Positions 48,867 to 63,300 of a DNA stretch of 64,000 bases are shown one piece after another. Origin of the DNA: an uncultured Gemmatimonadales bacterium (GTDB taxonomy: Bacteria > Actinomycetota > Acidimicrobiia > Spongiisociales > UBA5794). Every line of letters starts with the position of its first letter. The first letter of the stretch is position 1. The DNA lies in contig CAXMRC010000150.1 of NCBI GenBank assembly GCA_964195945.1, forward strand, positions 16,400 to 80,399, given 5' to 3'. The position numbers and the translations under genes were made by a program. A model generated the notes under the pieces. That model did no database searches. It was not told where the DNA came from and saw only the letters and a program-made list of their open reading frames with translations.

Positions 48867-51407
48867 TCATGAGCCATCGTTTCTTTGAGCCGCGCGGCGC
48901 GACCAGATCTCGGCACCGGCGATAGTGACGATGAGCGCCGCGGCCACGAAGCCCAAGCCGGCCCCATCGAGAGGGACGAGGCCGAGCATCGTGCGGAGTG
49001 CGGGGACTGTGATTGTGAGTATTTGCAGCCCGACACTGGCGACGATGATGACGTTGAGCGTCCGGTTGCGGATGGGCTTGGCTGCTATCCGGCGAGCCGG
49101 GTACACAAATGCCAACTGGGCGAGCGATTCGTAGAGAAACACTGCGGTCTGGGTCGCGGCACCTGCGTAGGCCAGCGCCGGAAACGTGAAGAACAGCAGC
49201 AGCCCGATCCCGGCCTTGAGGAACCCCGTTGTCAGGATAAATCGGATGCCGGCTCGGGTGAGAAGCGGCGCCGACGGGGGCCGGGGGCGCTGTGTCATCA
49301 TCCCCGCGTTACGGTCCATCCCCAGCGCCAGAGCGGGTGGCCCGTCGGCGATGATATTGATCCACAGCAACTGGACGGCAATAAGAGGGACAAGGAGGTT
49401 GCCGCCCTCGTCGCGCAGATTGAACAGGGCTGCGCCGGTTACGCCGATCGCGATCAGCAGTACCAGCGCCACGTTGGTAGAGAATAGGAAGCGGATGAAT
49501 TTGAGGATGTTGGCGTAGATGCTCCGACCTTCTTCGACCGCGGCGGTGATCGTGGCGAAGTTGTCGTCGAGGAGCACGAGATCAGCGACTTCACGGCTGA
49601 CGTCGCTCCCTCGTTGGCCCATCGCCACTCCGATGTCTGCCCGTTTCAGCGCTGGTGCATCGTTGACACCGTCTCCAGTCATGGCAACGATTTCACCGTT
49701 TGCCTTGAGTGCTTCCACCAGCGCCAGTTTGTGTTCCGGATTGACGCGGGCGAAGACGTCAACGTAGTTCACTTCGCGGGCCAACTCTTCACTGCTCAGT
49801 TGGTCGAGTTGTTCTCCGGTCATCACCGTGTCGGTGGCTATCCCGACGGTGTTGGCGATGGCCAACGCGGTGGCGGGATGGTCTCCCGTAATCATCAGCA
49901 CCCGAATACCCGCCTCCTGAGTAGCGTTGATGGCGCCAACTACCTCGGAGCGTGGCGGATCCCACAGCGAGACGGAACCGAGCCACTCGATGTCAGAGTC
50001 AGTTTCACCCGGTGCCCAGGCCAGCCCAAGGACTCGGTAGCCCTCTGCGGCGCCGGCTTCGATCTTGTCTTCCCAGATCGACCGCTCCTCCGGTGTCAGT
50101 CGGCTTCGCTCCAATAGCGCCTCAGGTGCCCCTTTGAGATAGGACACCGGCCCTTCCTGGTCACCCACGGTGACCCGCATAAACCGCCAGGCTGAATCGA
50201 AGGGTCGTACCGATTGCCGCTGGTAGCGGCTTCGGGTCTCGGCGGGGTCTACACCATGTTGTGCGGCGTAGGTGTACAGACCGATCTCGAGGGGATCCCC
50301 GGAACCACCCCCAGGCTCAGCATCGGCTGCGAGCACCATCGCAAGCAGCGCTCGCTCATCGTCCGATGAGTCCAGATCGCTGACAGTCATCGTGTTTTCG
50401 GTGAGGGTCCCGGTTTTGTCGGTGGCGATCACGGTCACCGAACCGAGCGCTTCCACAGCGGCGAGTCGTCTCACGACGGCCTTGCGCGATGCCATTCGCT
50501 CGGTGCCAAGTGCCAACGTCAGGGTCAAGACGGCGGGCAGACCTTCCGGTACCGCCGCGACCGCTACCGCAACGGCAAAGAGCAGAGCCTCGTCTATTCG
50601 GTCGATCCCTTCGATCCCGACACCGGCCACCACCAGCACTACGGCGAGGGCAGCCACCCAGCGGGCGATGCGATGGCCAAAATGCGCCATCCGACGCTCT
50701 AGGGGTGTCCCTTCGACCTCGACGTCGGCCAACATGCTCGCGATCCGCCCCATGGCAGATGCTGACCCTGTTCTGGTGACCACCAGCCAGGCATGGCCAC
50801 GCACTGCGAGCGTTCCTGAGAAGACCTCCTGTCCGACAGCCTTTTCGACTGGAACCGACTCGCCGGTCAGCATCGACTCGTCAACCATGAGACCCTGGTC
50901 ACCGGTCAGTTCCCCATCGGCGGGAACCCGGTCACCTGCCTCGACTCGAACCAGGTCCCCAGGGACCACCTCGGCCGCCGGGAGGTGCACCAAACGACCA
51001 TCGCGACGGACCGATACCAGCGGCGCGGCCAATTCTTTCAGACGTGCCAGTGCGTCTTCCGCCCGGTACTCCTGCCACACTCCCATGACCGTGTTGAACG
51101 CCAGGATCACCAGGATCGCTATCGACTCAATTGGCCATCCGGTCGCTCCTTCAAAAACCCAAACAACGGCGTCGAACGCCAAAGCGAACAACAAGATGTA
51201 GATGATTGGGCTACGTAGTTGCCGCAGCACTCGCTCCCACCACGGCGTCGGCCGAGCTTCGGGTAGCACGTTGGCGCCAACCTCGACCAGAAGCACAGCT
51301 GCCTGGTCCGAGCTCAACCCCCCGCCGCTCCATGGGGTCGCATAGTCGACCGGGTCGGCCCTCAATGTGGAATCGTCTCGATATTCGAACGGTGGCAACG
51401 AGTCCAT
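48867..51407 (-). CDS. P-type cation-transporting ATPase, type II (SERCA/CtpF-like, probable Ca2+ or Mg2+)
   Basis: [50 protein letters not shown]. 10 TM. Confidence 0.9.
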
Positions 51408-51413
51408 GCGGTT

Positions 51414-52370
51414 TCAGCGCGCATCTCGGCGCGGCTTCACTGGAGTGACGAACCCTTCGGGCTTGACCGCCAACACCGAGCACCGCACCGACTGCAAGAT
51501 GGTCTCGGCCGTGTTGCCCATGATGAGACCGCTCAGCCCGGCCCGAGCCACTGTTCCCATGACAATGAGTCCGATGTCGAGCCGCTCAGCCAGGAGCGGC
51601 AACTCGCGACGTGGTTCGCCCGACACCATATGGATCGTCGCTCTCATCTCGTCCACATGGTGGCGTGCCACCAGTGCGCTGAGCTGTTCGCTATGTGCAG
51701 CCTCGGCTTCGCGAACCATCACATCGACAATGGCTCCCGGCATTTGCACGTATGGCGAGGTACGCAGCGTGGCCTCGCCGTCCAAGCTCCAGGCGTGTCC
51801 CACATGCAGCTCACCATCTTTCCGGCTACACAGCGAAGTCGCCAGGTCCATCGCTAGGTCGTTGAGGCCATCACGAATCGGGTCTTCCGGATCGGGGTCC
51901 ACCAGGGCCAGTACCTGCAGCTTGCGGGCTTGAGACGGTCGCATCACCCAGACCGGTACCGGGCACTTCCGCAGCACATGCATCACGCCGCTGCTCAGTT
52001 GACAAGTGTTCCCTGTCTCGGGACCAGGCTCCCCCAACATCACGAGGTCGTGGCCAAATTCGAGGACCCGCTGAATGACCTCGATAAACGGCTCACCAAC
52101 CGCGGCCATCACCTTCACTTCACTCCCACCCCGAGCGTTCTCGACCATGCGCCGCAGCTGCTGTTCCCGCTCACCAACCAGCGCCGCCTCGACATCGACA
52201 ACCCGACCCTCAACCTCGACTCGCCGATGCCGTCGAGGTATCCGCGCAACTACGTCCATCACCGTCAATTCAGCCTGGTTGACATCGGCGAGCTCGACGG
52301 CGGCCCGAAGGGTCAGCGGCTCCAGATGCCCCGGAGATCCCGCTACCAGAATGCTCTTGAACCTATCCAT
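51414..52370 (-). CDS. Universal stress protein, tandem UspA domains
   Basis: Two Usp domains (SILVAGSPG...; ...MGTVARAGLSGLIMGNTAE). AAAGGA SD. Stop 6 nt before the ATPase ATG. Confidence 0.85.
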   Translation of the reverse strand: MDRFKSILVAGSPGHLEPLTLRAAVELADVNQAELTVMDVVARIPRRHRRVEVEGRVVDVEAALVGEREQQLRRMVENARGGSEVKVMAAVGEPFIEVIQRVLEFGHDLVMLGEPGPETGNTCQLSSGVMHVLRKCPVPVWVMRPSQARKLQVLALVDPDPEDPIRDGLNDLAMDLATSLCSRKDGELHVGHAWSLDGEATLRTSPYVQMPGAIVDVMVREAEAAHSEQLSALVARHHVDEMRATIHMVSGEPRRELPLLAERLDIGLIVMGTVARAGLSGLIMGNTAETILQSVRCSVLAVKPEGFVTPVKPRRDAR

Positions 52371-52409
52371 CGCAACACCATCCTTTCGACGCTCGATCAG
52401 CTATGAGCG

Positions 52410-52724
52410 TTATCCAGCGCAAGCTCGGCACAGAGCTGTTGCGGGCAAGGCTGCGAGTCGTTCGGCCGCAATCGACGTTCCGCACGTCTCGCACGAGCCG
52501 TAGCGACCGGAGTCAATCCGGTCGAGCGCTTCATCTAGCGCAGCGAGCCGGCCCTCGATGGCATCGGCTTGGAGCGCCGCTTCGTCATCGGTGACATCAT
52601 GCGGCTCGTAGTCGAGTCGACTGGTTGAAGCCACCCTCAGATCCCGATGCAACCGCGTCAATCGGTCGCGCTCATCTAGGAGAAGGGATTGCCGCCTCCA
52701 CGCGGATTGGGAGCGCACTCTCAT
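52410..52724 (-). CDS. TraR/DksA-family C4-type zinc-finger protein
   Basis: GSCETCGTSIAAERLAALPATALCRACA, a CxxC-x17-CxxC finger after a coiled-coil region. Confidence 0.75.
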   Translation of the reverse strand: MRVRSQSAWRRQSLLLDERDRLTRLHRDLRVASTSRLDYEPHDVTDDEAALQADAIEGRLAALDEALDRIDSGRYGSCETCGTSIAAERLAALPATALCRACAG

Positions 52725-53194
52725 TGCTCACCGCCCTCGGTCGACAAACCGCATCCGGCGCTCGATCGACTCCGGATCTGCCTCAGCCTCAGATATTCGT
52801 GGTCGAGCCCTTCGTCCACCCCTCGCGATGACCGCCGGCTACATTCAATACAATTTGCGGCGGCCGGCAGCGCCCGCAGCCGAATTAGCGGGATCCCCTC
52901 ACCGCAGGCTGTGCAGTACCCATAGGTGCCGTCCGCAAGGCGATCCAGTGCCTCTTCGATACGCCGGAGCCGGGCCTCGGCCTGTTGCACGAGGATCAAG
53001 ACTGTTGCTGCATCGGAATCAGTCGAGGGGTCTTCCGCATCCAATAGATCGCTGATATCGCGCTGGCTCAGAGCGTCCGTTGCCTCTGTGTGCAGCGATT
53101 CCGCAGATCGGGCGGCCGACTCTCGGTGGCTCGCAAGAACGGCAACGAGCGCTGCCAGGGTCTTCGCTGCAAACCGCGTGGTTGTGGTGGCCAT
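52721..53194 (-). CDS. TraR/DksA-family C4-type zinc-finger protein (tandem paralog)
   Basis: GYCTACGEGIPLIRLRALPAAANCIECS. ATGA overlap with the downstream paralog. Confidence 0.75.
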   Translation of the reverse strand: MATTTTRFAAKTLAALVAVLASHRESAARSAESLHTEATDALSQRDISDLLDAEDPSTDSDAATVLILVQQAEARLRRIEEALDRLADGTYGYCTACGEGIPLIRLRALPAAANCIECSRRSSRGVDEGLDHEYLRLRQIRSRSSAGCGLSTEGGEQ

Positions 53195-53344: not shown

Positions 53345-53431
53345 TGGCGTGCATAGGACCATTGAAGACAATAGGCGCCCAAGGTATCATGACATTGGTA
53401 GCGTACGTCGGTGCGAAGCGAAAGGGAGGCG

Positions 53432-53755
53432 ATGACCAACCACGAACGGCGACCTTGGACGTTTCTCACGAACCATGCCCGTGTATTGATTCTGATCGCG
53501 CAGAACCCCAGCATTCGCGGACGTGATGTAGCCGGCATCGTCGGCATCACCGAGCGCTCGACGCAGCGCATCATCGCCGAACTGGAGGAAGCGGGCTACC
53601 TGACCCACAAAAGGATTGGTCGCCGCAACCACTACGACGTGAGTTCGACCGCCCCCCTCCGTCACCCCCATGAAGAAGACATCGAGGTCGGTCTTTTGTT
53701 GGATCTGTTCGGGAAGACCGAGGTTGACCTCCCTACGAGCAAACCTCAGTCGTAG
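53432..53755 (+). CDS. Small winged-HTH transcriptional regulator
   Basis: MTNHERRPWTFLTNHARVLILIAQNPSIRGRDVAGIVGITERSTQRIIAELEEAGYL. AAGGGAGG SD. The table ORF starts at an upstream GTG at 53411. Confidence 0.7.
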   Translation: MTNHERRPWTFLTNHARVLILIAQNPSIRGRDVAGIVGITERSTQRIIAELEEAGYLTHKRIGRRNHYDVSSTAPLRHPHEEDIEVGLLLDLFGKTEVDLPTSKPQS

Positions 53756-53906
53756 GATCGGATTGCGGGGCCATTCTCCCGATCTTTGATCCGGCTCCAA
53801 TCCGAAACGGGCGCTTGGCCGGCTTCACGGAAGCTTCATATGCGCGACATGGTCGCTCGACATTCGCATTGGATAATGCGTATATGTTCGAGAAAGGAAC
53901 AACATC

Positions 53907-54314
53907 ATGAAAAAGGCATTCGGTCTCCTCCTCGTAGTTGGTTTGCTTGTTGCAGCCATGGCAACGGCAGCCTTTGCTGCGGTTCCTGGTGACGGAACCC
54001 GCGACTATGTCGGTGCGGGGTCCCAGGCAGGCAACGGCTACAGCCAGAACTTCGTCGACGTCGATCCGGTAGACGGGATCAACGACAACTTCGTCGATGT
54101 CGATGGTGACAAGATCTGTGACAACTTCGTGGACGAAGATGGCGACGGATTCAGCGACCTGCGCGTCCCCCGCAGTGAGGGTGCCCAGGGTCCCCACGGC
54201 AATGGCACCGGCGTTTGTGACGCCGAGAACTTCGTCGACGCTAACAACGACGGCATCTGCGACACCGCTGGCAGCGGTGGCGGTCAGCAGCGGATGGGTG
54301 GACGCTCCCTGTAG
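53907..54314 (+). CDS. Small secreted protein with thrombospondin-type-3-like calcium-binding repeats (NFVDxDxDGxCD)
   Basis: AAAGGAA SD. Signal peptide MKKAFGLLLVVGLLVAAMATAAFA. Five repeats: NFVDVDPVDGINDNFVDVDGDKICDNFVDEDGDGFSD and ENFVDANNDGICD. The longer ORF on the opposite strand (53733..54326) was rejected. Confidence 0.7.
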   Translation: MKKAFGLLLVVGLLVAAMATAAFAAVPGDGTRDYVGAGSQAGNGYSQNFVDVDPVDGINDNFVDVDGDKICDNFVDEDGDGFSDLRVPRSEGAQGPHGNGTGVCDAENFVDANNDGICDTAGSGGGQQRMGGRSL

Positions 54315-54517
54315 CTCCACCGACATACCACCGGCCTTCGGGACGGTAATGAATGCTCCCCCGCCTCAACTCGGGGGAGCATTCTTGTGAGTGGAACCCC
54401 CAACATCCGGTTGGGGGTTCCCTGATTACGTCACAATCCCGCGGCCCGCCAATCGAGATAGCGGGGACGGCATCCGTTGCCCACGGTGTGGGGCCGCGTC
54501 GGATAACATGACTTTCC

Positions 54518-56470
54518 ATGCGATGGCAGCCATCAGCTGGAGTCGCCGCAGGGTTCATGCTGGTTCTTGCGGCGTGCACCGGCGGAGTAGCTCCAACCAC
54601 GACCTTGGAGACCGGCTCTACTACCACCACCGCGCCTGCTATCGCTTCTTCCACTCCACCGAGCGACTCAACGACGAGTCCTCCTCCGACCCGGGTGCCC
54701 GTCGAGCCTGCCGACGTCGTCCTCTACAACGGCAGCATCGTCACGATGGACGATGCGTTCACAATTGCCGAGTCCGTCGCGATTCGAGACGGGACTGTGG
54801 TCGCCGTCGGCGCCTCTGACGAAGTCCTCGCCTATGTCGGCGGTGCCACCACTTCGGTCGACCTCGAAGGCCGCGTTCTGATGCCGGGGTTCGTGGACCC
54901 CCATACCCACCTACTGCAAGACCCCGCTCCAGATGTCGCCGCGATGCGTATCGCTCAGGAGCTCATGCTCGCCGGCGGGACCACGACGGCGGGGACTCCA
55001 AGCATCGAACCTGACGAGCTGGCGGCCTACCAGGCCATGGATGCAGCCGGAGAGCTGGCGGTGCGCAGCCACCTCTACGTTCTCTACAACACAGTGTGCG
55101 GTGGTCGAGAGTTCGGCGACTTCTATCTGGAGAACGAATTCTCCCGCGACCCCGACCTCAACCTTGCGGTAGCGGGCGTCAAAGTCTTCACTGACGGCGG
55201 TGCGTGTAATGCCCCGGCAATGTCGCTCGAGTACCTAGCGACGGCGCCGGACTACCTCAAGGAGGTCGGCTGGACGGGTCAAGGCACGTTGTATGTCGAC
55301 GCCGCCGAGGTAGCGAGCGTCGTCTCAGCCGTTGACGCTGCCGGCGGAATGACCGTGATCCATGCTATCGGCGACCGGGGAATCTCGACCGCGCTCGCCG
55401 GCCTGGCCGACGCGCTTGACGGCCAACCGTCAGCCAACCGGCACCGCATCGACTACAACAGCATGTCGACACTGCTCACGCCCGCCGAACTCGCCACATA
55501 CGGCGCCATCGACATGATCCCGGTCGTGATGTTGATGCCCTGGGGGTCGGCTTGTGACGAAGGTGTAGCCGAACTGTGGCAGGCGATCCTCCCCGAGCGT
55601 GCCGTCAATTCGATCGAGGACCGTCGAGCCATCCAGTCCGCCAACCCCGGCATCCGCCTTTCCTGGCACGGGGACTTCCCGTCCCTGCCGCACCTGCCGT
55701 TCCAGCAAATGTTCTCTGTGGTGGCGGGCGGCGCCGTCCACGTCGACACTTGGGAGCCGTGCCATCCAACGGCGTGGGATTGGTTCCCCACTGTCCCCCT
55801 CGAAGAGGCACTGAGAATGATGACAATCAACGCCGCCGCCGCCATGGGAATCGAGGAGAAAGTCGGTTCCATTCAAGTCAGCAAGGTCGCCGACCTCCTC
55901 GTCCTGGCAAACGACCTATTCGATCCAGACCCCGAAATCGCCATCGCCACCAACTATCCGCTGGTGACCATGATCGACGGTGTTGTCCAATACTGCACCG
56001 GAGACCTATGCGAGCGTCTGACCGGCGCCGCCGCGTCCCCCGTTCCCACCACCGAGGCGCCACCGCTCCACGCCGGCTGGACGCCGGTGGACCACCCAGT
56101 TGTCGATGCGGTGAGAGCGTCTCGAGAGTTCGAACCGGCGTCCCTGGCAGTAGATCAAGACCGGGATACGGCATGGATCGCCGGTGAGGGCCCACCCCAG
56201 TGGATCGAACTCGACCTGGGATCGTCGGACCGGGTCGAAAGCATCCGCCTGCTAGTCAGCCAGGATCCGGCCGGATTCACGGTCCACCAAATCTACGCCG
56301 GCCCCAGTCCGGATCCAACAAAGCTTGTAGCGGAGATCAAGGGCGAGACCGTTTCCGGGCAGTGGCTCGAGATCGATCTCGGCGTCGAAGCGCAGTTCAT
56401 CCGCATTCTCACGCCCGACACGCCGTCATGGGCCGCCTGGTTCGAGATCGAAATCCTGTTGTCGAGCTAG
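54518..56470 (+). CDS. Amidohydrolase-3 family lipoprotein with C-terminal F5/8 type C (discoidin/CBM32-like) domain
   Basis: Lipobox LVLAAC. Thr/Pro-rich linker. Metal-dependent hydrolase motifs (MPGFVDPHTHLL, HAIGD). C-terminal DRDTAWIAGEGPPQWIELDLG...FIRIL...FEIEIL is a discoidin jelly-roll. Confidence 0.8.
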   Translation: MRWQPSAGVAAGFMLVLAACTGGVAPTTTLETGSTTTTAPAIASSTPPSDSTTSPPPTRVPVEPADVVLYNGSIVTMDDAFTIAESVAIRDGTVVAVGASDEVLAYVGGATTSVDLEGRVLMPGFVDPHTHLLQDPAPDVAAMRIAQELMLAGGTTTAGTPSIEPDELAAYQAMDAAGELAVRSHLYVLYNTVCGGREFGDFYLENEFSRDPDLNLAVAGVKVFTDGGACNAPAMSLEYLATAPDYLKEVGWTGQGTLYVDAAEVASVVSAVDAAGGMTVIHAIGDRGISTALAGLADALDGQPSANRHRIDYNSMSTLLTPAELATYGAIDMIPVVMLMPWGSACDEGVAELWQAILPERAVNSIEDRRAIQSANPGIRLSWHGDFPSLPHLPFQQMFSVVAGGAVHVDTWEPCHPTAWDWFPTVPLEEALRMMTINAAAAMGIEEKVGSIQVSKVADLLVLANDLFDPDPEIAIATNYPLVTMIDGVVQYCTGDLCERLTGAAASPVPTTEAPPLHAGWTPVDHPVVDAVRASREFEPASLAVDQDRDTAWIAGEGPPQWIELDLGSSDRVESIRLLVSQDPAGFTVHQIYAGPSPDPTKLVAEIKGETVSGQWLEIDLGVEAQFIRILTPDTPSWAAWFEIEILLSS

Positions 56471-57232: not shown

Positions 57233-58219
57233 CTAAAGGTCCAGGCGTGATTGGAGCTGTCGCTCGATCTCCGCGACGGTCCACAAGCCCTCGAGGCGAT
57301 ACACGACCTTGCCATCGGGGTCGAGGAAGAAGAGCCAGGGCTCAGATTCCAACCCGAAGGCGGTCATGGCCGGTGACGGCTGGAAGCCGGCGAGCGCCGG
57401 ATCGGGCAAGCCGCTGAATGCCTCGGCGTACACGAAGTTCACCCGGTCGGCGTAGCGGGTCTGCACGTCGCCAACCATGTCGTATACCGGGCCGCAGAAC
57501 CTCGTCTCGCAAAACGCCGGCGTGGCGAGGAGAAACAGCGTGGGGTCGTCGTTGGCAAGAGCCTGGGCGAGACTCTGGCGATGCAGCTCAGGATTAGGCG
57601 ACTCCGCCGAGGTCAGCAGAGCTATGTCGCCGTCAACGTCCTCCAGCGTCGGTGTGTCGAGAGCGGGCGCCACCTCGCCCGGACCGAGAGTGTCCGTGTC
57701 CTCAGCTACCCGGAATCCGATGCTCTGGAACGCAGCCCCGCCATCGCTGAATCGGGCCTCCACCTCCAGCCCCCAGTCGCCGGCCCGGTTGAAGTCACGT
57801 TCGTGGGCGAAGATGGTGGTCAGGCCGTCTGGAGCCACGATTCGCTCGGCATCGACTTCGGATTCCAGGATCGCATTCTCAGGGTCGGTGAGGTCCCAGT
57901 AATGGAAGTGAACGGTGGCATCCGTTATCAGTACACCCTCCGCATCGAAGAGCCCCACGGCGAAGCGCGATGGGCCGACGACCAATTCCGACGGTACCAG
58001 TGCGACCGTCAGAGCGGCGGTCACCTCCTCGGGCGCCAGGTGGACATGCCCATCGTCGCTGTCTTCGTGTGCGTCGACGGTGTTCGACAATGGCTCTCCA
58101 AACTCGTTGCCGCCTTCGTCTGCAGATCCACACGCCGCAACGCTGAGCATCAGGGCGACCAGGATGACGTGTAAAGGTCCGGAGATGGACCGCCTCGATT
58201 GGGGAAGATGGGCTCTCAT
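57233..58219 (-). CDS. Two-domain lipoprotein with C-terminal thioredoxin-fold (SCO/TlpA-like) region
   Basis: Lipobox LMLSVAAC. C-terminal FLLATPAFCETRFCGPV...WLFFLDPDGKVV resembles SCO1/TlpA-type thiol or metal-binding folds. The N-terminal domain is unassigned. 4-nt overlap with the upstream gene. Confidence 0.65.
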   Translation of the reverse strand: MRAHLPQSRRSISGPLHVILVALMLSVAACGSADEGGNEFGEPLSNTVDAHEDSDDGHVHLAPEEVTAALTVALVPSELVVGPSRFAVGLFDAEGVLITDATVHFHYWDLTDPENAILESEVDAERIVAPDGLTTIFAHERDFNRAGDWGLEVEARFSDGGAAFQSIGFRVAEDTDTLGPGEVAPALDTPTLEDVDGDIALLTSAESPNPELHRQSLAQALANDDPTLFLLATPAFCETRFCGPVYDMVGDVQTRYADRVNFVYAEAFSGLPDPALAGFQPSPAMTAFGLESEPWLFFLDPDGKVVYRLEGLWTVAEIERQLQSRLDL

Positions 58220-60291
58220 GTCGCCTCGACGAGGGCAGTCGGGAAAGTCTCAACGGTGGCGTCCAACGAGGCGGCCTCAAAGAACAGTCGGTAAAAGCCG
58301 GCACTCGGTACGTTGAGGGCGATCTCGTAGACGCCGCCTCCGACCGGTGTGGCGGTGAAGCGCTCACTCCAGTTACCGCCTGTTGCGCTGGCTACGACCC
58401 GCAGGTCGGAGACGTCGTCAATCGGCTCGCTGGTCGAAGCGTCCGATAGTTTCACCCGCACTGCGAGAGACTGACCCGCCTCCACCTTGAGCGTTTCCGT
58501 CACGACCTCGAGCTCGGGCGGTCCCGCCGCGCCTGCTGCAGTCGTTAGATCGCTGGGGTTGGCGGTAAATTCGAAGCAGTGCACCACCCTGGGGGAGTCC
58601 AGCAGGAACGCCACCTGGAAAGTGCCTGCGGTCGGAATTCGCAGCTTGCCGGTGAACACGCCGGGTGCGGTCTCGTGCAAGCTGCGGTTGACTAGCTGTG
58701 TTGCTCGCGGGATCAAACCGTGACCCTGGAAGCTGCCGGACGGCCCTTGCGCCCCTTCCGGCAGCAAGTAGATCTGATCATCGGCCGGATTAGCAACGAA
58801 TACTCCGCCCGCGGCGGGAGCCGCCAGCATGGCGCCGGCCGTGGACCTGATCGGAGTGCTAGCCGGAGCCTGCTGTCCGACGGGGATAGTCGCCACCTCG
58901 ACGCCCGCTGCCTCGCCGAGGTCTTGCAGCGAGATGGCCGTAACCTCGGCCGCACCCCGGGACCTGACATAGGCGGTGGTGTCACTGAACGAGATCTCGT
59001 CCGGCGCGCCAGGCACCGGAACCTCGTGGGTGATCGTGCCGCTGGCGACATCGAAGATGAAGACCTTCCCGGCGGCGGGGCTGGCGGCGAATCCCCACCT
59101 CCCGCCCGGTGCAAACTCGACGGAGGTGAGGCCCGGGGCGGCGGCGTACCGTCCGATGACCTCGTGCGACAGGCCGTCCACGATGGCTATGTCGCCGGTC
59201 CCGGCGCTCGCGACGTAGGCGTTGCCGTCGGCCGTTGAGACGGCGACGGCAACCGGAGCGTTCCCAACATCGATCTCGGCGACTTCTTCAAACAGAGAGG
59301 TATCGATTACGGAAAGCGTTCCAGCCGCGCTGTTGGTCGCGAAGGCAAAGCGGCCATCGGGCGAGAAGGCCAACTCGTGATGCCCGGCCCCCGTGGGAAC
59401 ACTCCCGACCACCTCGAGAGTGTTGGGATCGATGGCGGTGACCCCACCGTCGCTGCCGGCAGTGTCATTGCCCACCCAAACTGTGCGCCCGTCTGCAGCC
59501 AGCGCCACCCGCACCGGGTTGGGACCCGCATCGAGATGGCTGAGCACTACAAACCCGTCGAGGTCGGCTATCGCCACCTGGCCGTTGCTGGGAATTGAAA
59601 CGACCAACCGCGATTGGTCATCGGTAATCGCCCAGTCCTCGCCACGCCCGGTAAGCATCATGGACGTGAAAAGCTGGGTGTAGCCGCCGACGTCCACGGT
59701 GGGATCGATCACAGAGATCGATGGACTGTCATTGAGCGCCAGCAGGAAGAAGCCATTGAAGTCGACCAGGGGTCGTTCGGTGAGAGCCCCCGACAGGAAC
59801 CCCGCCACCTGAGCTTCACAGCTCCTCCCTTCTCCGGCGGATTTGTAGTCCATCCACGCCAACGGACGGACCTCGGGGATCGGCTGGCCGGCGTCGTCGG
59901 TGATGTTGAAGATCACCGACGAGTTGGCTCCCTCGACGATCTCTGAAGCGAGATCGGCGCCCCGGCCTCCGATGCCGAGGAAGCTCTGCATGGTGAACTC
60001 GACGGACACCCCGTCCTTGGTCACCTTCTCGTAGTACAGGTCGTCATGGATGGGCTGGCCGTGGTGGTCGAATTCCGCGCCCTCGGCGACCGGCTCCCCG
60101 TGGTCGCCGTGTCCGTCATCGACAGCTTGACCGTCGGTGGTGGCTTCATTTTCGTGGTCGTGGTCGTCTGCGGCGGCGGTGAGCGTATCCGTCTCTTCGT
60201 GATCATGAGCCGCGGGGTCGGGCCCGCCGCAAGCGGCGACCACCAGGGCCAGGGCTAGTAACGCTATTACAGGTCTTGTCGGCTTGGGCAT
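58216..60291 (-). CDS. Lipoprotein with a His-rich N-terminal tract, a YVTN-type beta-propeller and a C-terminal Ig-like domain
   Basis: Lipobox LVVAAC. His-rich region (AAHDHEETD, DDHDHENE, GHGDHGE, FDHHGQPIHDD). Repeated propeller blades (GNAPVAVAVS..NAYVAS, SVEFAPGGRWGFAAS, LAFSPDGRFAFATN). Confidence 0.75.
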   Translation of the reverse strand: MPKPTRPVIALLALALVVAACGGPDPAAHDHEETDTLTAAADDHDHENEATTDGQAVDDGHGDHGEPVAEGAEFDHHGQPIHDDLYYEKVTKDGVSVEFTMQSFLGIGGRGADLASEIVEGANSSVIFNITDDAGQPIPEVRPLAWMDYKSAGEGRSCEAQVAGFLSGALTERPLVDFNGFFLLALNDSPSISVIDPTVDVGGYTQLFTSMMLTGRGEDWAITDDQSRLVVSIPSNGQVAIADLDGFVVLSHLDAGPNPVRVALAADGRTVWVGNDTAGSDGGVTAIDPNTLEVVGSVPTGAGHHELAFSPDGRFAFATNSAAGTLSVIDTSLFEEVAEIDVGNAPVAVAVSTADGNAYVASAGTGDIAIVDGLSHEVIGRYAAAPGLTSVEFAPGGRWGFAASPAAGKVFIFDVASGTITHEVPVPGAPDEISFSDTTAYVRSRGAAEVTAISLQDLGEAAGVEVATIPVGQQAPASTPIRSTAGAMLAAPAAGGVFVANPADDQIYLLPEGAQGPSGSFQGHGLIPRATQLVNRSLHETAPGVFTGKLRIPTAGTFQVAFLLDSPRVVHCFEFTANPSDLTTAAGAAGPPELEVVTETLKVEAGQSLAVRVKLSDASTSEPIDDVSDLRVVASATGGNWSERFTATPVGGGVYEIALNVPSAGFYRLFFEAASLDATVETFPTALVEAT

Positions 60292-60361
60292 AGCTCTTAT
60301 AATCCCAGAATCGTGGGGTGGGTACAGCCCCGCGGAGCTGCACCCACCATCGATCCTTGTG

Positions 60362-63300
60362 TCACTTGACGTCCAGGGTCACCGTGGCGATGTTCGACAC
60401 CGCCCCCGGACTGGTCACCTGGTAGGTGAAGGTGTCCTCGCCGAAGAACGCGTTTCGTCCGTCCGTCGGCAGATATGTGAAGGACCCGTCTGCATTGAGG
60501 GTCACCGTACCGTGTGTGGCGTCGGAGACGAGCTCCGCTGTCATCGGGTCACCTTCCGGGTCGGAGTCGTTGGCCAACACCCCAGGTGCCGACACGTTGG
60601 TGCGCTGCGGGTTTCGCCTGGTCCACGCATTTGCATCGAAGCCGTCGTCCACCGCCGTCGGTGGAAGGTTGGGGTTGTCCGCCGGGTCGGCGAAGCGCAC
60701 GATGCCCCACAGCCCCTGGAACCGGCCAAACGAGCCGATGTCGCTGAATAGGTAGTCACCGGGTACCGCAAACGTGCCACCCGTCTTTCTGGGCACGAAG
60801 TCGAAGTGGCTGGAAGCGCCGATACCTTCCTGGGCACCAGTCCACCACGACCGCATGTTGTGGCGGTTGGCGTTGTGGGTGCTCGCCGACAGGTCCAGGT
60901 GATTGTGGGTGCGGAAATCGTCGCCAATGTCCGCACTGCCGTTCACATACGGTTCCCGCTGCCAGGCATGGCCGTTGATGGTCATCACAATGCCGCGGGC
61001 ATGGCCGCCCGGCTGCACCACCCGCATCCGGAATTGCATGGCGTCCGCATTGCCGTCGCCATCGACGTCTGTGAACGGCTCCGTCGAGACGGTGAACACC
61101 GGCGTCTGCGGGTCTCCCACCGACGTCGGCGTCGGTGCGCCCAGCAGGGGCAGGCTGTTGGAGAACACGTCGAACTGGGTCGCTCCGCGCAGGTTCGCGT
61201 GCTCGAACGGCGTGTTGGGGGCGATACCCAGCCGGAACCACAGCGGCTCGGTGCCGTAGTTGATCCCCTTCTGTCCGGAGTCTTGCGGATCCTCGGGCAC
61301 TCCGCCGCCCTCGGCAGCCACGTTGGGTACGGCGCAGTCCATCGCCGTACCAACCCCGGGACAGCCTCCGCCGTAGCGGAGGTTGACGTCGGTCTGGAGG
61401 ACCGTGACAAACTCCCGGAACGCGGTATCGGTGCCGTCGTTCCACTTCTTGAATACCGTGGCCGAAGCCCGACTGTCGGCGTCTTCGATCCAGGTGGCGT
61501 CCTCGGGTTCGATCACCAGCGCACCCACCAGGCCCTTGTTGGAGCCGGTGATGCGGTCGGCCGGCATCAGGTTGACCACCCCGAACTCCACCGGAGTCGC
61601 CACCAGGGTGACCGAGCCGTCGGGATTGTTGGTCACGCCGATGTCGCCGGCATACCAGGTGTACTTCTTCGAAGCACCGGGTGGCACCAGTTGCGCATCG
61701 GATTGGGTCCCGGTCAAGAACCCGTCGCTGTCGCGAACGTTGTACTCGACAAGCTGGGCGTGGAGCCCGACCAGGCTGGAGGGCGTCAAGTCATTGGCGT
61801 TGAAGGTGGTGATTCCTTGGACACCGTTATTGAGGACGTTCTTGTCCTTGGCCACGATCGGCGGTAGGGCGCTGAACCCGGGCAGGTTCGGGACCACCGT
61901 GGGCAGGGCATTGGTTAGCTCCACCTCTACGCAGTCGCCCGCGTTGGCTCGCAATATGAGCGGCTCGACAGGCACGCCCGGTTTGAGGCCGTTGGGATTG
62001 CCGTCGCCGTCGTAGGTCAGGTCTTCGTTACGGACGTACATCAGCGCGGTCGGGTCGATCAGGGGACCGGCACCTTGCTCCAAACCGGTGGTCGGATCGG
62101 TCACTCCGTTGGTCCGGGTGTTGTACACCAGCCCGTCGGGTCCGAGTACATCTGCTGCCCGCACCGCGGTGACCCGGATGAATCGCTCGGGTGCGATGTT
62201 GGGGCACACTCTCGGCTGAGGATTTCCCCTACCCCTCTTCGGTGGCGTGAACTCGCCGATGTTGGTGATCGTCGGCGTCCCGTTAGCCGAGAAGTCGTTG
62301 TTGGGGAGCGGCAGCAGGTCGGCGCGGGCCCTCCCGTAGCTGCGCAGGATGCCCCACACGCCGTTCCACAGATCCTCGGTTTGGGCACCCATCGTCCACA
62401 TGTAGTCGAGTGTGGCCGGATTGCCGGACCCGATGTCGGGCACCACCGGCATCTCGATGTTGAAGTACTCAGAGATGCCCATGAACTGCGAGTTCCTCCA
62501 GCCGGAGTCGGCGCCGTGTTCCTCCTGACGCCACTTCAGGCCGTGGATGGTCATATTGTGTTCTTCCTCATGGGCCCCGGTCTGGACCCGGAAACGCACT
62601 TTGTCACCCATGTACACCCGCGCCAGTGGTGTGGCCGGGTCACCCGGAAGTACGCCACCGGTCAGCGCCGGATAGGGGATCTGGCCCTGAGTGGTGTTGA
62701 GGTCGGCGATGGCCCGGTCGGTCCGTGTCTCGAAGGCGCGGGCCAGGTCGCCGGCTTCGCCGGCCGTCTGGCCGGGTGCGGCCACGGGCAGACCCGTGTC
62801 CGGGTCGATCACCGTCTTGTCTGGATCGAACACGCGCAGTCCGATGGGCTCGTTGCGGTAATTGACCACATAGGTGCCGGGATCATCGGCCGAGATGGCC
62901 TCCGGACACGGCCGCGGCACCACGTTGCCGGGCACGCTGCCCGGGCACTGGTTCGGGAACCAGAACAGATCGGCCAGCCGATTTGCCGGGGGCTCCTGTC
63001 GCACCGACGGGTTAACGGCGTTGAAGAAGTCGGCATACGAGTTGATCAGGACACCGTCCCCGTTGTCGACCTGCGTCAAGGCACCTTGGCCGGCCTCATA
63101 GGCGTGCTGGAAGTCGGCGAACTCCATGAAGAACTCGCGATGGCTGTTGGCCGGATCCGGCGTAAGGATATCGGCGCGCCAGCTCGTCGGCCCGCCGTCT
63201 TGACGGGCGACGGTGTCGCTGGCTGTCACCTGCGAAGTTTCACCAGGCAGGAACTGCGGACCGGTCTCAGGCACATAGAGCGTGTCGTCGCCAGAGCCGT

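What the first reader, a model, noticed from the sequence alone, without database searches (positions are those of the whole stretch)
53907..54314. Small secreted protein made almost entirely of thrombospondin-type-3-like Ca2+-binding repeats
After a signal peptide, about 100 aa consist of five NFVD-x-D-x-DG-x-CD units with paired Cys. This is the D-x-D-x-DG-x-x-D-x-x-D calcium-binding repeat of thrombospondin type 3. It sits 6 kb from a SERCA/CtpF-type Ca2+/Mg2+ ATPase, next to the stress operon regulator. Such a protein could act as an extracytoplasmic calcium buffer or sensor.
Basis: partly seen in the sequence, partly recalled or inferred. Interest (0 to 1): 0.5.

Follow-up and report, generated by a model that had tools for sequence, protein, structure and literature searches.

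The report
Secreted acidic calcium-loop repeat protein
This is a real gene for a small secreted, aspartate-rich protein with four calcium-loop-like repeats, from a large unnamed family whose genes sit directly behind promoters controlled by cell-envelope sensing systems, which suggests an inducible metal-binding stress protein and not a partner of the nearby ion pump.

Summary
The ORF 53907..54314 (+) is a real gene. Third codon positions vary most among homologues, it has a conserved ribosome-binding site, and two terminator hairpins follow it. The product is a Sec signal peptide plus a 111-aa mature protein (pI 4.05, 18 Asp, 22 Gly).

- There are four NFVD units, not five.
- Only two fit the strict Dx[DN]xDG calcium-loop motif.
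- There are three conserved Cys, not pairs.

No Pfam model matches, including TSP_3, TSP3_bac, Excalibur and EF-hand. Similarity to thrombospondin type 3 repeats is at motif level only. Linkage to the P-type ATPase is not conserved.

The protein belongs to a large unannotated family: about 1,000 clusters at 50% identity, from Actinomycetota, Chloroflexota, Clostridia, Coriobacteriia, several Gram-negative candidate phyla and methanogens. In 28 of 39 evaluable genome loci a signalling module lies directly downstream. Each module type comes with its matching promoter upstream of the repeat gene:
- an ECF sigma factor with an RsgI-like anti-sigma factor, and an ECF-type promoter;
- an OmpR-type two-component system, and 11-bp-phased CTTCAY boxes;
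- an NtrC-type two-component system, and a sigma-54 promoter.

This window has the four phased boxes.

Best reading: an inducible extracytoplasmic divalent-cation (probably Ca2+) binding protein that is an output of envelope signalling, comparable to ZraP. Metal binding is untested.

The parts
53823..53861 (+). Four direct repeats in 11-nt phase: CTTCAC 53823-28, CTTCAT 53834-39, CGACAT 53845-50, CTCGAC 53856-61. Putative binding site for an OmpR/PhoB-family response regulator.
   Evidence: Conserved in 11 close-homologue loci whose neighbouring genes are unrelated. The same geometry occurs upstream of family genes in Chloroflexota. The two-box pattern gives 19 hits in 3.3 kb of upstream windows against 3 hits in 393 kb elsewhere. 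Binding by a regulator is inferred, not shown.
53872..53877 (+). -10-like hexamer GATAAT, 10 nt after the last box. No conserved -35, as expected for an activator-dependent promoter.
   Evidence: GATAcT is conserved in 11 of 11 aligned loci. Chloroflexota relatives show the same 10-nt spacing to TATCCT. The generic sigma-70 scan did not call it. The transcription start is not known.
53884..53906 (+). Conserved leader ATGTTCGAGAAAGGAACAACATC, with Shine-Dalgarno GAAAGGA at 53892-53898, 8 nt before the ATG.
   Evidence: Nearly invariant in 11 loci. RNAalifold finds no conserved RNA structure with covariation. No Rfam match.
53907..54314 (+). Coding sequence of the 135-aa precursor (stop codon included).
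   Evidence: ORF listed. 58 homologues. Variable codon columns at positions 1/2/3 are 68/66/108 of 118.
53907..53978 (+). Sec-type signal peptide, aa 1-24 (KK n-region, hydrophobic core, AFA|A cleavage motif). No lipobox and no twin-arginine motif.
   Evidence: Read from the sequence. Conserved across the family. Confident helix in AF2. The cleavage site is inferred.
54048..54158 (+). Three tandem NFVD-Dx[DN]xDG-type loop units: aa 48-60 (degenerate), 61-72 (G6->K, Cys71), 73-84 (canonical).
   Evidence: Family consensus is WGFxDxDGDGxNDNFVDADGDGVCDNFVDxDGDGINDL.
54159..54227 (+). Gly/Pro-rich linker, aa 85-107, containing the conserved Cys104.
   Evidence: Alignment A1. pLDDT below 50.
54228..54263 (+). 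Fourth loop unit, aa 108-119: NFVDANNDGICD (canonical Dx[DN]xDG, Cys118).
   Evidence: D111, D115, G116, C118 and D119 are at least 90% conserved.
54351..54384 (+). Terminator-like hairpin 1 (13-bp GC-rich stem).
   Evidence: RNA fold of 54310-54430 gives -60.4 kcal/mol, z = -5.9 against shuffles. A comparable hairpin follows the gene in L001 and L010, before the response-regulator gene.
54393..54421 (+). Terminator-like hairpin 2 (12-bp stem).
53411..53755 (+). Upstream neighbour: a 114-aa winged-helix regulator (HTH_24/MarR_2-like). Probably not part of the conserved unit.
   Evidence: Pfam result. Found next to the repeat gene only in this lineage and its closest relative L058 (70% identity).

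Best explanation
The gene encodes a Sec-secreted, Asp/Gly-rich protein of about 11 kDa. It probably has little fixed structure on its own. Its core is four short loops of the Dx[DN]xDG type, two canonical and two degenerate.

Inferred mechanism. Outside the cytoplasmic membrane the loops bind divalent cations, most likely Ca2+. Each loop would use the side chains of D1, D3/N3 and D5, the backbone oxygen of residue 7, and the invariant D9. The protein would fold or compact on binding.

Shown by comparison. The gene is a separate transcription unit. It has a conserved ribosome-binding site, two terminator hairpins, and a promoter in which four 11-bp-phased CTTCAY boxes end 10 bp upstream of the -10. 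This is the layout used by OmpR/PhoB-family response regulators. In relatives, an orthologous OmpR-type response regulator and histidine kinase lie directly downstream of the gene. Across the wider family the same kind of gene is the promoter-proximal target of three unrelated envelope-signalling systems:
- an ECF sigma factor with an RsgI-like SEAL-domain anti-sigma factor;
- an OmpR-type two-component system;
- a sigma-54/NtrC-type two-component system.

Proposed function. It is an inducible extracytoplasmic cation-binding effector of an envelope or cation stress response. It may also feed back on its sensor, as ZraP does for ZraSR and CpxP for CpxAR.
For: Real gene on the + strand:
- Codon-position variability is 68/66/108 of 118 columns, and 31-44 synonymous codon differences separate the window gene from each homologue.
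- The Shine-Dalgarno sequence and leader are conserved, and hairpins follow the stop codon.

Secreted and acidic: signal peptide and composition.

Loop motif:
- Loops 3 and 4 fit Dx[DN]xDGxxD. The family consensus is [FY]VDxDGDG[VI]CDN.
- The only Pfam families touched by relatives, all below threshold, are Dx[DN]xDG families: EF-hand_5, Excalibur, TSP3_bac, FG-GAP_3 and EF-hand_1.
- The motif binds Ca2+ in at least twelve structural contexts (PMC3123361). Excalibur-like motifs bind Ca2+ in disordered proteins (PMC8391695).

Disorder without metal: AF2 gives pLDDT 55-64 and no secondary structure beyond the signal peptide.

Regulation:
- The boxes are conserved in 11 loci with unrelated neighbours. 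The same geometry occurs in Chloroflexota, with about 750-fold enrichment upstream of the gene.
- The response regulator next to the gene in L001, L010 and L056 is 41-58% identical to the one next to the gene in Chloroflexota loci.

Family-wide link to signalling:
- 20 loci have an ECF sigma gene 6-49 nt downstream plus an RsgI_M anti-sigma gene. 8 loci have a two-component system downstream. That is 28 of 39 evaluable loci.
- An ECF-type promoter (TGAA[AT]GGAT, then about 14 nt, then TCGTAT) lies upstream of the repeat gene in 18 of 20 of the ECF loci.
- TGGCAC-N5-TTG sigma-54 promoters lie upstream of the repeat gene in all four NtrC-type loci.
Against: - No metal-binding measurement exists for any family member. 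Every database name found for sampled family members is 'hypothetical protein'.
- Two of the four loops in this particular protein deviate from the motif.
- The conserved Cys are not needed for Ca2+ coordination and hint at another metal or at disulfides.
- No response-regulator gene lies in the 64-kb window, so the regulator of this copy is unidentified.
- The boxes could in principle bind another protein.
- Adjacency and promoters show that the gene is an output of signalling. They do not show what it does or that it feeds back.
Confidence: 0.55

Rival explanations
1. It binds transition or heavy metals instead of Ca2+. The Asp-rich loops together with the conserved thiols would bind Zn2+, Cd2+, Pb2+, Cu or Ni. 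The protein would act as an inducible metal sponge or metallochaperone, a functional analogue of ZraP.
For: - Cys is conserved: three in this subfamily, and one per loop at position 8 in most relatives.
- Many relatives come from anaerobes, where secreted thiols stay reduced.
- Some relatives, and their partner anti-sigma factors, carry His-rich tails, for example L027/L029 and L044.
- The sigma-54/NtrC arrangement mirrors zraP-zraSR. ZraPSR is described as a metal-sensing envelope system in PMC12314577.
Against: - The dominant conserved feature is the oxygen-ligand Dx[DN]xDG loop, which favours hard cations.
- In EF-hand-type loops, position 8 points away from the ion (established knowledge of EF-hand geometry).
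- The window protein has a single His.
- Two loop units in this subfamily lack Cys altogether.
Confidence: 0.2
2. It is a structural or wall-associated polyanionic protein. It would cross-link or fill the cell wall, possibly with Ca2+ bridges, as part of cell-wall repair. The metal loops would have no buffering or sensing role of their own.
For: - Twenty relatives are the first gene of operons with RsgI-like anti-sigma factors that carry the DINPS SEAL motif and a Gly/Asn/Gln-rich tail.
- In B. subtilis this anti-sigma architecture monitors cell-wall defects (PMC9732909; bioRxiv 10.1101/2023.06.27.546760).
- The protein has low-complexity linkers and a basic Gly/Arg tail.
- The same loop units occur in giant surface proteins.
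Against: - There is no wall-anchoring signal: no LPXTG, lipobox, SLH or PG-binding domain in the window protein.
- The family also occurs in diderm phyla and archaea with different envelopes.
Confidence: 0.12
3. One reading: it is an extracytoplasmic Ca2+ buffer or sensor that works together with the neighbouring SERCA/CtpF-like P-type ATPase and stress genes.
For: - A P2-type ATPase whose best (sub-threshold) matches are Ca2+-ATPase models lies 2.5-5 kb away.
- A Usp gene also lies near the family gene in L061.
Against: - The ATPase is on the opposite strand, in a separate unit with the Usp gene and two DksA/TraR genes.
- None of the other close-homologue loci examined has a P-type ATPase near the gene.
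- The conserved partners are signalling modules instead.
Confidence: 0.05
4. It is a precursor of a modified peptide (RiPP or bacteriocin) or of a signalling peptide. The Cys-containing repeats would be core peptides.
For: It is small, repetitive, Cys-containing and unannotated. In many relatives it is adjacent to regulators.
Against: - It has a standard Sec signal peptide, not a leader peptide.
- No modifying enzymes, peptidase-transporters or immunity genes recur among neighbours in the neighbour clustering.
- The repeats match a metal-loop motif.
Confidence: 0.03
5. It is not a gene on this strand. The 197-aa antisense ORF 53733..54326 would be the real gene, or the region would be non-coding.
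For: - The antisense frame is open here and in 7 of 10 homologous loci.
- GC by codon position does not discriminate strongly: 0.69/0.44/0.70 for the + ORF against 0.65/0.47/0.65 for the antisense ORF.
Against: - Variation is concentrated at + strand third positions (108 of 118, against 68 and 66).
- The antisense frame has stop codons in 3 of 10 loci.
- The Shine-Dalgarno sequence, signal peptide and terminators all fit the + strand.
- An open antisense frame is expected from GAC/GGC/GTC-rich coding sequence.
Confidence: 0.02

Closest known systems
Thrombospondin type 3 repeats (Pfam TSP_3 PF02412) and bacterial TSP3 repeats (TSP3_bac PF18884)
   Same: - Both are extracellular, Asp-rich tandem repeats containing D-x-D-x-D-G-x-x-D.
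- Both have little regular secondary structure.
- A profile of this family cross-matches a protein with 17 TSP3_bac repeats.
- The peptide DADGDGV also occurs in a paper on COMP.
   Different: - Neither Pfam model gives a hit for the window protein. TSP3_bac gives sub-threshold hits in only 2 of 62 relatives.
- The period here is 12 aa, against about 22-36 aa.
- Position 12 is Val, not Asp.
- Cys sits at loop position 8, not after D12, and there are only three Cys.
- There is no flanking lectin-like or OmpA domain.
- PDB searches do not retrieve thrombospondin or COMP.
Excalibur domain (PF05901; DxDxDGxxCE)
   Same: - Both are bacterial and extracytoplasmic.
- Both have a DxDxDG loop followed closely by Cys and then an acidic residue.
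- 4 of 62 relatives give sub-threshold hits (best E 0.016).
- The Excalibur motif is described as a Ca2+ site that needs no flanking helices (PMC8391695).
   Different: - The motif here is one residue shorter (DxDxDGxCD).
- It is repeated in tandem, not embedded singly in a ~36-position domain (Pfam profile length 36) with upstream Cys.
- No hit passes threshold.
Generic Dx[DN]xDG calcium-loop class (EF-hand, dockerin, FG-GAP/VCBS 'calcium blade')
   Same: Loops 3 and 4 match the linear motif. The flanking hydrophobic residues (F-V before D1, I/V-C after G6) resemble calcium-blade strands. There are weak hits to EF-hand_5, EF-hand_1 and FG-GAP_3 (PMC3123361).
   Different: - No helix-loop-helix is predicted.
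- There is no bidentate Glu at position 12.
- The units are far too short to be propeller blades.
ZraP-ZraSR (also CpxP-CpxAR, Spy): a small periplasmic accessory or effector protein encoded beside the envelope two-component system that drives it
   Same: - All are small secreted proteins.
- At family level the gene is adjacent to a histidine kinase and response regulator, and has the matching promoter. This includes sigma-54 promoters next to NtrC-type regulators, the zraP arrangement (PMC12314577).
   Different: - There is no sequence relationship. No LTXXQ/CpxP Pfam hit was found.
- ZraP and CpxP are helical, oligomeric proteins. This one is a loop-repeat protein.
- Feedback on the kinase has not been shown here.
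SigI/RsgI-type signalling (SEAL-domain anti-sigma factor with a disordered tail). This applies to relatives, not to this window.
   Same: In 20 loci the anti-sigma factor downstream of the repeat gene carries Pfam RsgI_M with the DINPS autocleavage motif and a Gly/Asn/Gln-rich tail (bioRxiv 10.1101/2023.06.27.546760).
   Different: - The partner sigma factor scores as an ECF-type sigma-70 (Sigma70_r2/r4_2), not as SigI.
- This study found no description of a small repeat protein as the first gene of such operons, although no literature search targeted that point.
- The window itself has no sigma/anti-sigma pair nearby.
Pho-box-type promoters of OmpR/PhoB-family regulators
   Same: Both have direct repeats with an 11-bp period that reach to about 10 bp upstream of the -10 and replace the -35. 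The core TTCAC resembles actinobacterial PhoP/PhoR boxes (my own knowledge, not tested here).
   Different: - The adjacent response regulator and kinase in relatives do not reach any NCBIfam equivalog cut-off. PhoB scores 226 bits against a cut-off of 296, and the best kinase match is BaeS.
- No pst or pho genes are nearby.
- Binding has not been tested.

Membership tests
Thrombospondin type 3 repeat (Pfam TSP_3, PF02412) | Match to the family HMM | tested here: not met
   hmmscan of the window protein at E<=10 gave 0 families. TSP_3 is not among the 25 most-matched Pfam families listed for 62 relatives at E<=1 (36 families matched in all).
Thrombospondin type 3 repeat (Pfam TSP_3, PF02412) | Full D-x-D-x-D-G-x-x-D-x-x-D motif, with the second acidic pair (D9 and D12) | tested here: not met
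   D1, D3, D5, G6 and D9 are present in loops 3 and 4. Position 12 is Val (NFVD period of 12), and loops 1 and 2 are degenerate.
Thrombospondin type 3 repeat (Pfam TSP_3, PF02412) | Regular Cys pairs that form inter-repeat disulfides | tested here: not met
   There are only three Cys (71, 104, 118), at loop position 8 or in the linker. Disulfide status cannot be tested here.
Bacterial TSP3 repeat (Pfam TSP3_bac, PF18884) | Match to the 22-residue repeat HMM | tested here: not met
   No hit for the window protein. 2 of 62 relatives hit below threshold (best E 0.0013). The family profile does cross-hit a protein with 17 TSP3_bac repeats, which is motif-level similarity only.
Excalibur calcium-binding domain (PF05901) | HMM match and DxDxDGxxCE spacing | tested here: not met
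   No hit for the window protein. 4 of 62 relatives are sub-threshold. The motif here is DxDxDGxCD, one residue shorter.
EF-hand | Helix-loop-helix with a 12-residue loop ending in a bidentate Glu | tested here: not met
   No helices are predicted outside the signal peptide. Position 12 is Val. Only weak EF-hand_5 and EF-hand_1 hits appear, in 5 and 2 of 62 relatives.
Dx[DN]xDG linear calcium-binding motif class (Rigden et al., PMC3123361) | Presence of Dx[DN]xDG plus a nearby additional acidic ligand | tested here: met
   Loops 3 (DEDGDGFSD) and 4 (DANNDGICD) fit. Loops 1 and 2 are degenerate in this protein but canonical in the family consensus.
Dx[DN]xDG linear calcium-binding motif class (Rigden et al., PMC3123361) | Actual Ca2+ coordination | not testable with these tools
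   Needs ITC, 45Ca overlay, NMR or a structure. AF2 does not model ions.
Sec-secreted protein (signal peptidase I substrate) | Basic n-region, hydrophobic h-region, A-x-A cleavage motif, and no lipobox or twin-arginine motif | tested here: met
   MKK + 17 hydrophobic residues + AFA|A. The feature is conserved. No signal-peptide predictor was available, so this rests on inspection.
CpxP/ZraP/Spy (LTXXQ) periplasmic stress proteins | Sequence homology (Pfam LTXXQ, PF07813) | tested here: not met
   No Pfam hit for the window protein, and LTXXQ is not among the families listed for 62 relatives.
CpxP/ZraP/Spy (LTXXQ) periplasmic stress proteins | Gene is adjacent to the envelope signalling system that transcribes it | tested here: inconclusive
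   Met at family level: adjacency in 28 of 39 loci and matching promoters. In this window only the promoter boxes are present, and no response-regulator gene lies within 64 kb. Transcriptional dependence is inferred.

The most novel reading that the evidence does not exclude
The [FY]VDxDGDG[VI]CDN-repeat proteins would be a previously unrecognised, cross-phylum class of extracytoplasmic cation-sensing partner proteins. They would be disordered when metal-free and compact when metal-bound. Each would be both the main transcriptional output and a feedback co-sensor of its signalling system. Three mechanistically unrelated signalling systems would have recruited them independently: ECF sigma with SEAL-domain anti-sigma, OmpR-type two-component systems, and sigma-54/NtrC-type two-component systems. 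Their occurrence in monoderm bacteria, diderm bacteria and methanogenic archaea would make them a general route by which envelope Ca2+ or metal status is read.
Probability: 0.25. Interest if true: 0.8.

Novelty: new variant of a known kind. Interest (0 to 1): 0.55.

Why it matters
Calcium and divalent-metal handling outside the bacterial cytoplasm is poorly understood, and few dedicated extracytoplasmic Ca2+-binding proteins are characterised.

This gene is one member of a family of roughly a thousand sequence clusters. The family has no confident Pfam or NCBIfam assignment, no name and no solved structure.

The comparison made here shows that three different kinds of envelope-signalling systems each place this kind of gene directly behind their own promoter. 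That gives a concrete hypothesis to test: the family is an inducible metal-loop effector or co-sensor. It also points to cultured hosts in which to test it, including Oscillospiraceae and Ruminococcaceae isolates and possibly Methanohalophilus.

If the proteins bind metal and feed back on their sensors, they would be a Gram-positive and archaeal counterpart of ZraP or CpxP. Tandem minimal Ca2+/lanthanide-type loops are also of interest for metal capture.

Tried and rejected
- **Family HMM searches.** Pfam and NCBIfam scans of the window protein gave nothing or noise (floc_PepA E 0.018, XAC2610 E 0.097).
- **PF27309 (MJ0753_N).** This precomputed label on three distant relatives is only 'faint' for the one relative whose loci were looked up (P0047). 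The model is absent from the local Pfam copy, so it could not be evaluated.
- **PDB sequence searches.** Searches with the family profile and with a canonical relative gave only chance hits.
- **Structure prediction.** AF2 with 28 and then 62 sequences gave low-confidence coil. Foldseek against the PDB returned nothing. The remaining fold searches were not run, because the model is too weak to give meaningful matches.
- **RNA element in the conserved leader.** There is no Rfam match and no covarying structure, so this was rejected in favour of a promoter plus Shine-Dalgarno sequence.
- **Metagenome scan.** A scan with the conserved leader pattern found only 3 contigs.
- **ATPase linkage.** Rejected after comparing neighbourhoods.
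- **wHTH neighbour as the conserved regulator.** Rejected, because it occurs only in the closest relative.
- **Antisense ORF.** Rejected.
- **Literature searches.** Searches for the repeat peptide found only a COMP paper and an unrelated vaccine-design paper.
- **Response-regulator orthologue in the window.** None was found.
Full report
**1. Observation**

The window has an ATG ORF at 53907..54314 on the + strand that encodes 135 aa. The product starts with a classical Sec signal peptide, MKKAFGLLLVVGLLVAAMATAAFA|AVPGDG. The mature part is 111 aa, with pI 4.05, 18 Asp, 3 Glu, 22 Gly and only 6 Lys+Arg.

- There are four NFVD units, at aa 48, 61, 73 and 108. At DNA level they appear as four copies spaced 39, 36 and 105 nt.
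- Units 1-3 are tandem with a 12-13 aa period. Unit 4 follows a 23-aa Gly/Pro-rich linker.
- Only unit 3 (DEDGDGFSD) and unit 4 (DANNDGICD) fit Dx[DN]xDGxxD. Unit 1 has a one-residue insertion (DVDPVDGIND) and unit 2 has Lys at the Gly position (DVDGDKICD).
- There are three Cys (71, 104, 118), not a pair per unit.

**2. It is a real gene on this strand**

- In a codon alignment of ten homologous loci, 108 of 118 ungapped columns vary at + strand position 3. Positions 1 and 2 vary in 68 and 66 columns. The window gene differs from each homologue by 31-44 synonymous codons.
- The 197-aa antisense ORF stays open in 7 of 10 loci and has stop codons in 3. An open antisense frame is expected from GAC/GGC/GTC-rich coding sequence. 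GC by codon position does not discriminate by itself.
- A Shine-Dalgarno sequence, GAAAGGA, lies 8 nt upstream of the ATG inside a nearly invariant leader.
- Two strong hairpins follow the stop codon, at 54351-54384 and 54393-54421 (z = -5.9 against shuffles).
- The gene is therefore a separate, probably monocistronic, unit.

**3. Family**

- The word-indexed protein search found 58 proteins. About 44 are close relatives of 123-143 aa from Acidimicrobiia/Actinomycetota metagenome bins. The same layout recurs in distant hits, including Euryarchaeota (alignment A1).
- Nearly invariant features are the signal peptide, a PGDGxRD motif just after it, the loop aspartates and glycines, and three Cys.
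- An exhaustive profile search of 1.84 billion cluster representatives found 1,007 clusters at E<=1e-3 and 154 at E<=1e-10.
- A scan of one genome per species returned 43 loci. They come from Acidimicrobiia, Anaerolineae, Caldilineae, Ardenticatenaceae, Oscillospiraceae, Peptococcaceae, Lachnospiraceae, Coriobacteriia (Slackia, Raoultibacter), Hydrogenedentes, Kapaibacterium, Latescibacterota and Fibrobacterota.
- Almost all of these proteins have a signal peptide, then 2-8 copies of [FY]VDxDGDG[VI]CDN separated by Gly-rich linkers. Many end in a basic Gly/Arg tail.
- Wherever a source gives a name for the family members checked, it is 'hypothetical protein'.

**4. Relationship to known calcium motifs**

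- Pfam gives no hit for the window protein even at E<=10.
- Among 62 relatives, every hit is below threshold. The hits to characterised calcium-binding families all fall in families built around Dx[DN]xDG: EF-hand_5 (5 members), Excalibur (4, best E 0.016), TSP3_bac (2, best E 0.0013), FG-GAP_3 (2) and EF-hand_1 (2).
- The family profile does cross-hit a 2,026-aa OmpA-family protein that carries 17 TSP3_bac repeats, through the shared D-x-D-G-D-G-V-x-D core.
- PDB sequence searches retrieve no thrombospondin, COMP or any other significant structure.
Membership of TSP_3 fails on the HMM, on D12, on the Cys pattern and on the repeat period.
- The motif is closest in spacing to Excalibur (DxDxDGxxCE) but is one residue shorter.
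- The Dx[DN]xDG motif binds Ca2+ in near-identical fashion in at least twelve unrelated contexts (PMC3123361). Excalibur-like motifs bind Ca2+ with roughly 100 uM affinity in disordered proteins and compact them (PMC8391695).

**5. Structure**

AF2 with 28 sequences gave mean pLDDT 55. With 62 sequences it gave 64. Only the signal-peptide helix was confident. The loop regions reached 70-76 with essentially no regular secondary structure. Foldseek against the PDB found nothing. This fits a protein that is disordered without its ligand, but it is weak evidence.

**6. Context: not the ATPase**

- The neighbours in the window are:
  - a P2-type ATPase whose best matches are Ca2+-ATPase models, below cut-off (48867..51407, minus strand);
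  - a tandem Usp gene;
  - two DksA/TraR zinc-finger genes;
  - a 114-aa winged-helix regulator directly upstream on the same strand;
  - a secreted amidohydrolase downstream.
- No P-type ATPase lies near the gene in any of the other close-homologue loci that were examined.
- The winged-helix gene is kept only in the closest relative.

**7. Context: signalling systems**

*Promoter boxes.* Eleven close-homologue loci have otherwise unrelated neighbours but share about 85 nt upstream of the ATG. This stretch holds four direct repeats in 11-nt phase, then 10 nt, then GATAAT (53872-77), then the conserved leader. In the window the repeats are CTTCAC 53823, CTTCAT 53834, CGACAT 53845 and CTCGAC 53856.
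- No RNA structure explains this conservation.
- The same geometry occurs upstream of family genes in Chloroflexota. L016, L018 and L022 have CTTCAT-CTTCAG-CTTCAT-CTTCAC, then 10 nt, then TATCCT. L047, L045, L051, L015 and L011 also match the two-box pattern, and L046/L054 carry a near-match (CTTCAC-N5-CTTCAA).
- The two-box pattern occurs 19 times in the 3.3 kb of upstream windows and 3 times in the remaining 393 kb. It is present in 17 of 22 loci.
- Phased 11-bp direct repeats that abut the -10 are the hallmark of OmpR/PhoB-family activators (established knowledge).

*Orthologous two-component system.* In L001, L003, L004, L010 and L056 an OmpR-type response regulator and a HAMP histidine kinase follow the gene. 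That regulator is 41-52% identical to the one following the gene in four Chloroflexota loci. It reaches no NCBIfam equivalog cut-off. The best matches are PhoB and MtrA for the regulator and BaeS for the kinase. No orthologue lies in the 64-kb window.

*ECF sigma operons.* In 20 Clostridia and Coriobacteriia loci an ECF-type sigma gene starts 6-49 nt after the repeat gene.
- It is followed by an anti-sigma factor with the Pfam RsgI_M (SEAL) domain, the DINPS autocleavage motif and a Gly/Asn/Gln-rich tail (bioRxiv 10.1101/2023.06.27.546760; PMC9732909).
- In 18 of these 20 loci an ECF-type promoter (TGAA[AT]GGAT, then about 14 nt, then TCGTAT) precedes the repeat gene.
- The repeat gene is therefore the first gene of a probably autoregulated operon.

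*Sigma-54 loci.* In four loci (Hydrogenedentes, a metagenome-assembled chromosome of unstated taxon (L025), Kapaibacterium and Latescibacterota), NtrC-type kinase/regulator pairs lie downstream. The repeat gene is preceded by TGGCAC-N5-TTG sigma-54 promoters. This is the zraP-zraSR arrangement.

*Overall count.* A signalling module lies directly downstream in 28 of 39 evaluable genome loci. Some loci are near-duplicates (L027/L029, L016/18/22, L046/54), so the number of independent cases is smaller. The three-way convergence is still clear.

**8. Mechanism**

Shown:
- a secreted acidic loop-repeat protein;
- a separate transcription unit;
- conserved phased boxes;
- family-wide pairing with envelope-signalling systems and their cognate promoters.

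Inferred:
- The loops bind Ca2+ or another divalent cation outside the membrane, and the chain compacts on binding.
- The gene is switched on by a dedicated OmpR-type regulator in response to an envelope or cation signal.
- The protein buffers or presents the cation, and may feed back on the sensor as ZraP or CpxP do.

The conserved Cys, the His-rich tails in some relatives and the anaerobic hosts keep a softer-metal role open. The RsgI-like partners keep a cell-wall role open.

**9. Novelty**

The motif class is known. The family is not described in any library or paper that I could search. This includes its 12-residue tandem loop-plus-Cys architecture and its status as a shared output of three kinds of envelope-signalling systems.

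I rate it a new variant of a known kind, with moderate interest. The interest lies more in the family-level regulatory pattern than in this single copy.

Noticed in passing
window 48867..53194 (minus strand): An apparent stress unit: a P2-type cation ATPase (best NCBIfam matches are PMR1/SERCA-type Ca2+-ATPase models, below cut-off), a tandem-domain Usp protein, and two consecutive DksA/TraR C4 zinc-finger proteins of 104 and 157 aa.
   Followed up: partly
window 54518..56470 (+): A 650-aa amidohydrolase (Amidohydro_3) fused to a C-terminal F5/8 type C (discoidin) domain. Its N-terminus looks like a lipoprotein signal (…LVLAAC…).
   Followed up: no
window 58216..63925 (minus strand): Two large probable surface proteins. 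One is a 691-aa beta-propeller (Cytochrom_D1/YNCE-like) with a YtkA-like C-terminus. The other is a 1,187-aa protein ending in Big_9/cadherin-like domains. The second architecture also occurs fused to the loop repeats in giant relatives (P0060, P0092).
   Followed up: no
L005 2620-3420; L006 1601-2275; L060 6493-6912; both flanks of the P0021 gene (contigs without DNA): Class III adenylate/guanylate cyclase genes (Guanylate_cyc) recur within a few kb of the close-subfamily gene in at least four unrelated loci. In one case they lie on both sides of it, and in another next to a FIST sensor gene. This may be chance in cyclase-rich Actinomycetota or a further signalling link.
   Followed up: no
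L058 ~1700-2420; L060 5329-5964: A secreted DUF2202 (ferritin-like) protein lies directly downstream of the repeat gene in two close-homologue loci. This hints at a link to metals.
   Followed up: no
P0054; L051 5692-6261; L011 2068-2721: Some Chloroflexota members are fused to, or followed by, a helical domain containing 'LTQEQADAMLAAMxANVTAxLSQ'. Its LTxxQ-like signature recalls the CpxP/Spy/ZraP family. There is no Pfam hit on record for it, so this is only a resemblance.
   Followed up: no
L038 6427-7029: A second, Cys-free paralogue (repeats of DxNGDGIND) lies immediately after the Cys-containing repeat gene. It is followed by a probable outer-membrane protein and an NtrC-type kinase and regulator. 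L025 and L026 have a similar ~400-aa barrel-like protein between the repeat gene and the kinase gene.
   Followed up: no
L027 410-895 and 1405-2286 (also L029); L044 6001-6279: His-rich C-terminal tails occur in the repeat protein (…GGGMGHHNGGGHHGGRW; …HHHGHGHC). In L027 and L029 a His-rich tail also occurs in the partner anti-sigma factor (…HAAEHSQGAHHGNGHE). This suggests transition-metal binding in that branch.
   Followed up: no
P0059, P0063, P0065, P0067 (proteins): Proteins of 450-850 aa consist of a CarboxypepD_reg-like N-terminal domain followed by many 'GFGFVDxDGDGINDxFxDxDGDG[IV][CN]D' double-loop units. The loop pair therefore appears to be a modular building block beyond the small proteins.
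   Followed up: partly
L001 9208-10341: The histidine kinase next to the Acidimicrobiia repeat gene has only about 37 aa between its two transmembrane segments (read by eye). Kinases of this kind often depend on accessory proteins for sensing. The Chloroflexota orthologues have a longer extracytoplasmic segment.
   Followed up: no
window 53865-53880: A perfect 6-bp inverted repeat, CGCATT-GGAT-AATGCG, overlaps the -10-like hexamer. Partly palindromic sequence lies at the same place in some homologous loci, without clear covariation. It could be an operator for a second regulator, for example the adjacent winged-helix protein.
   Followed up: partly
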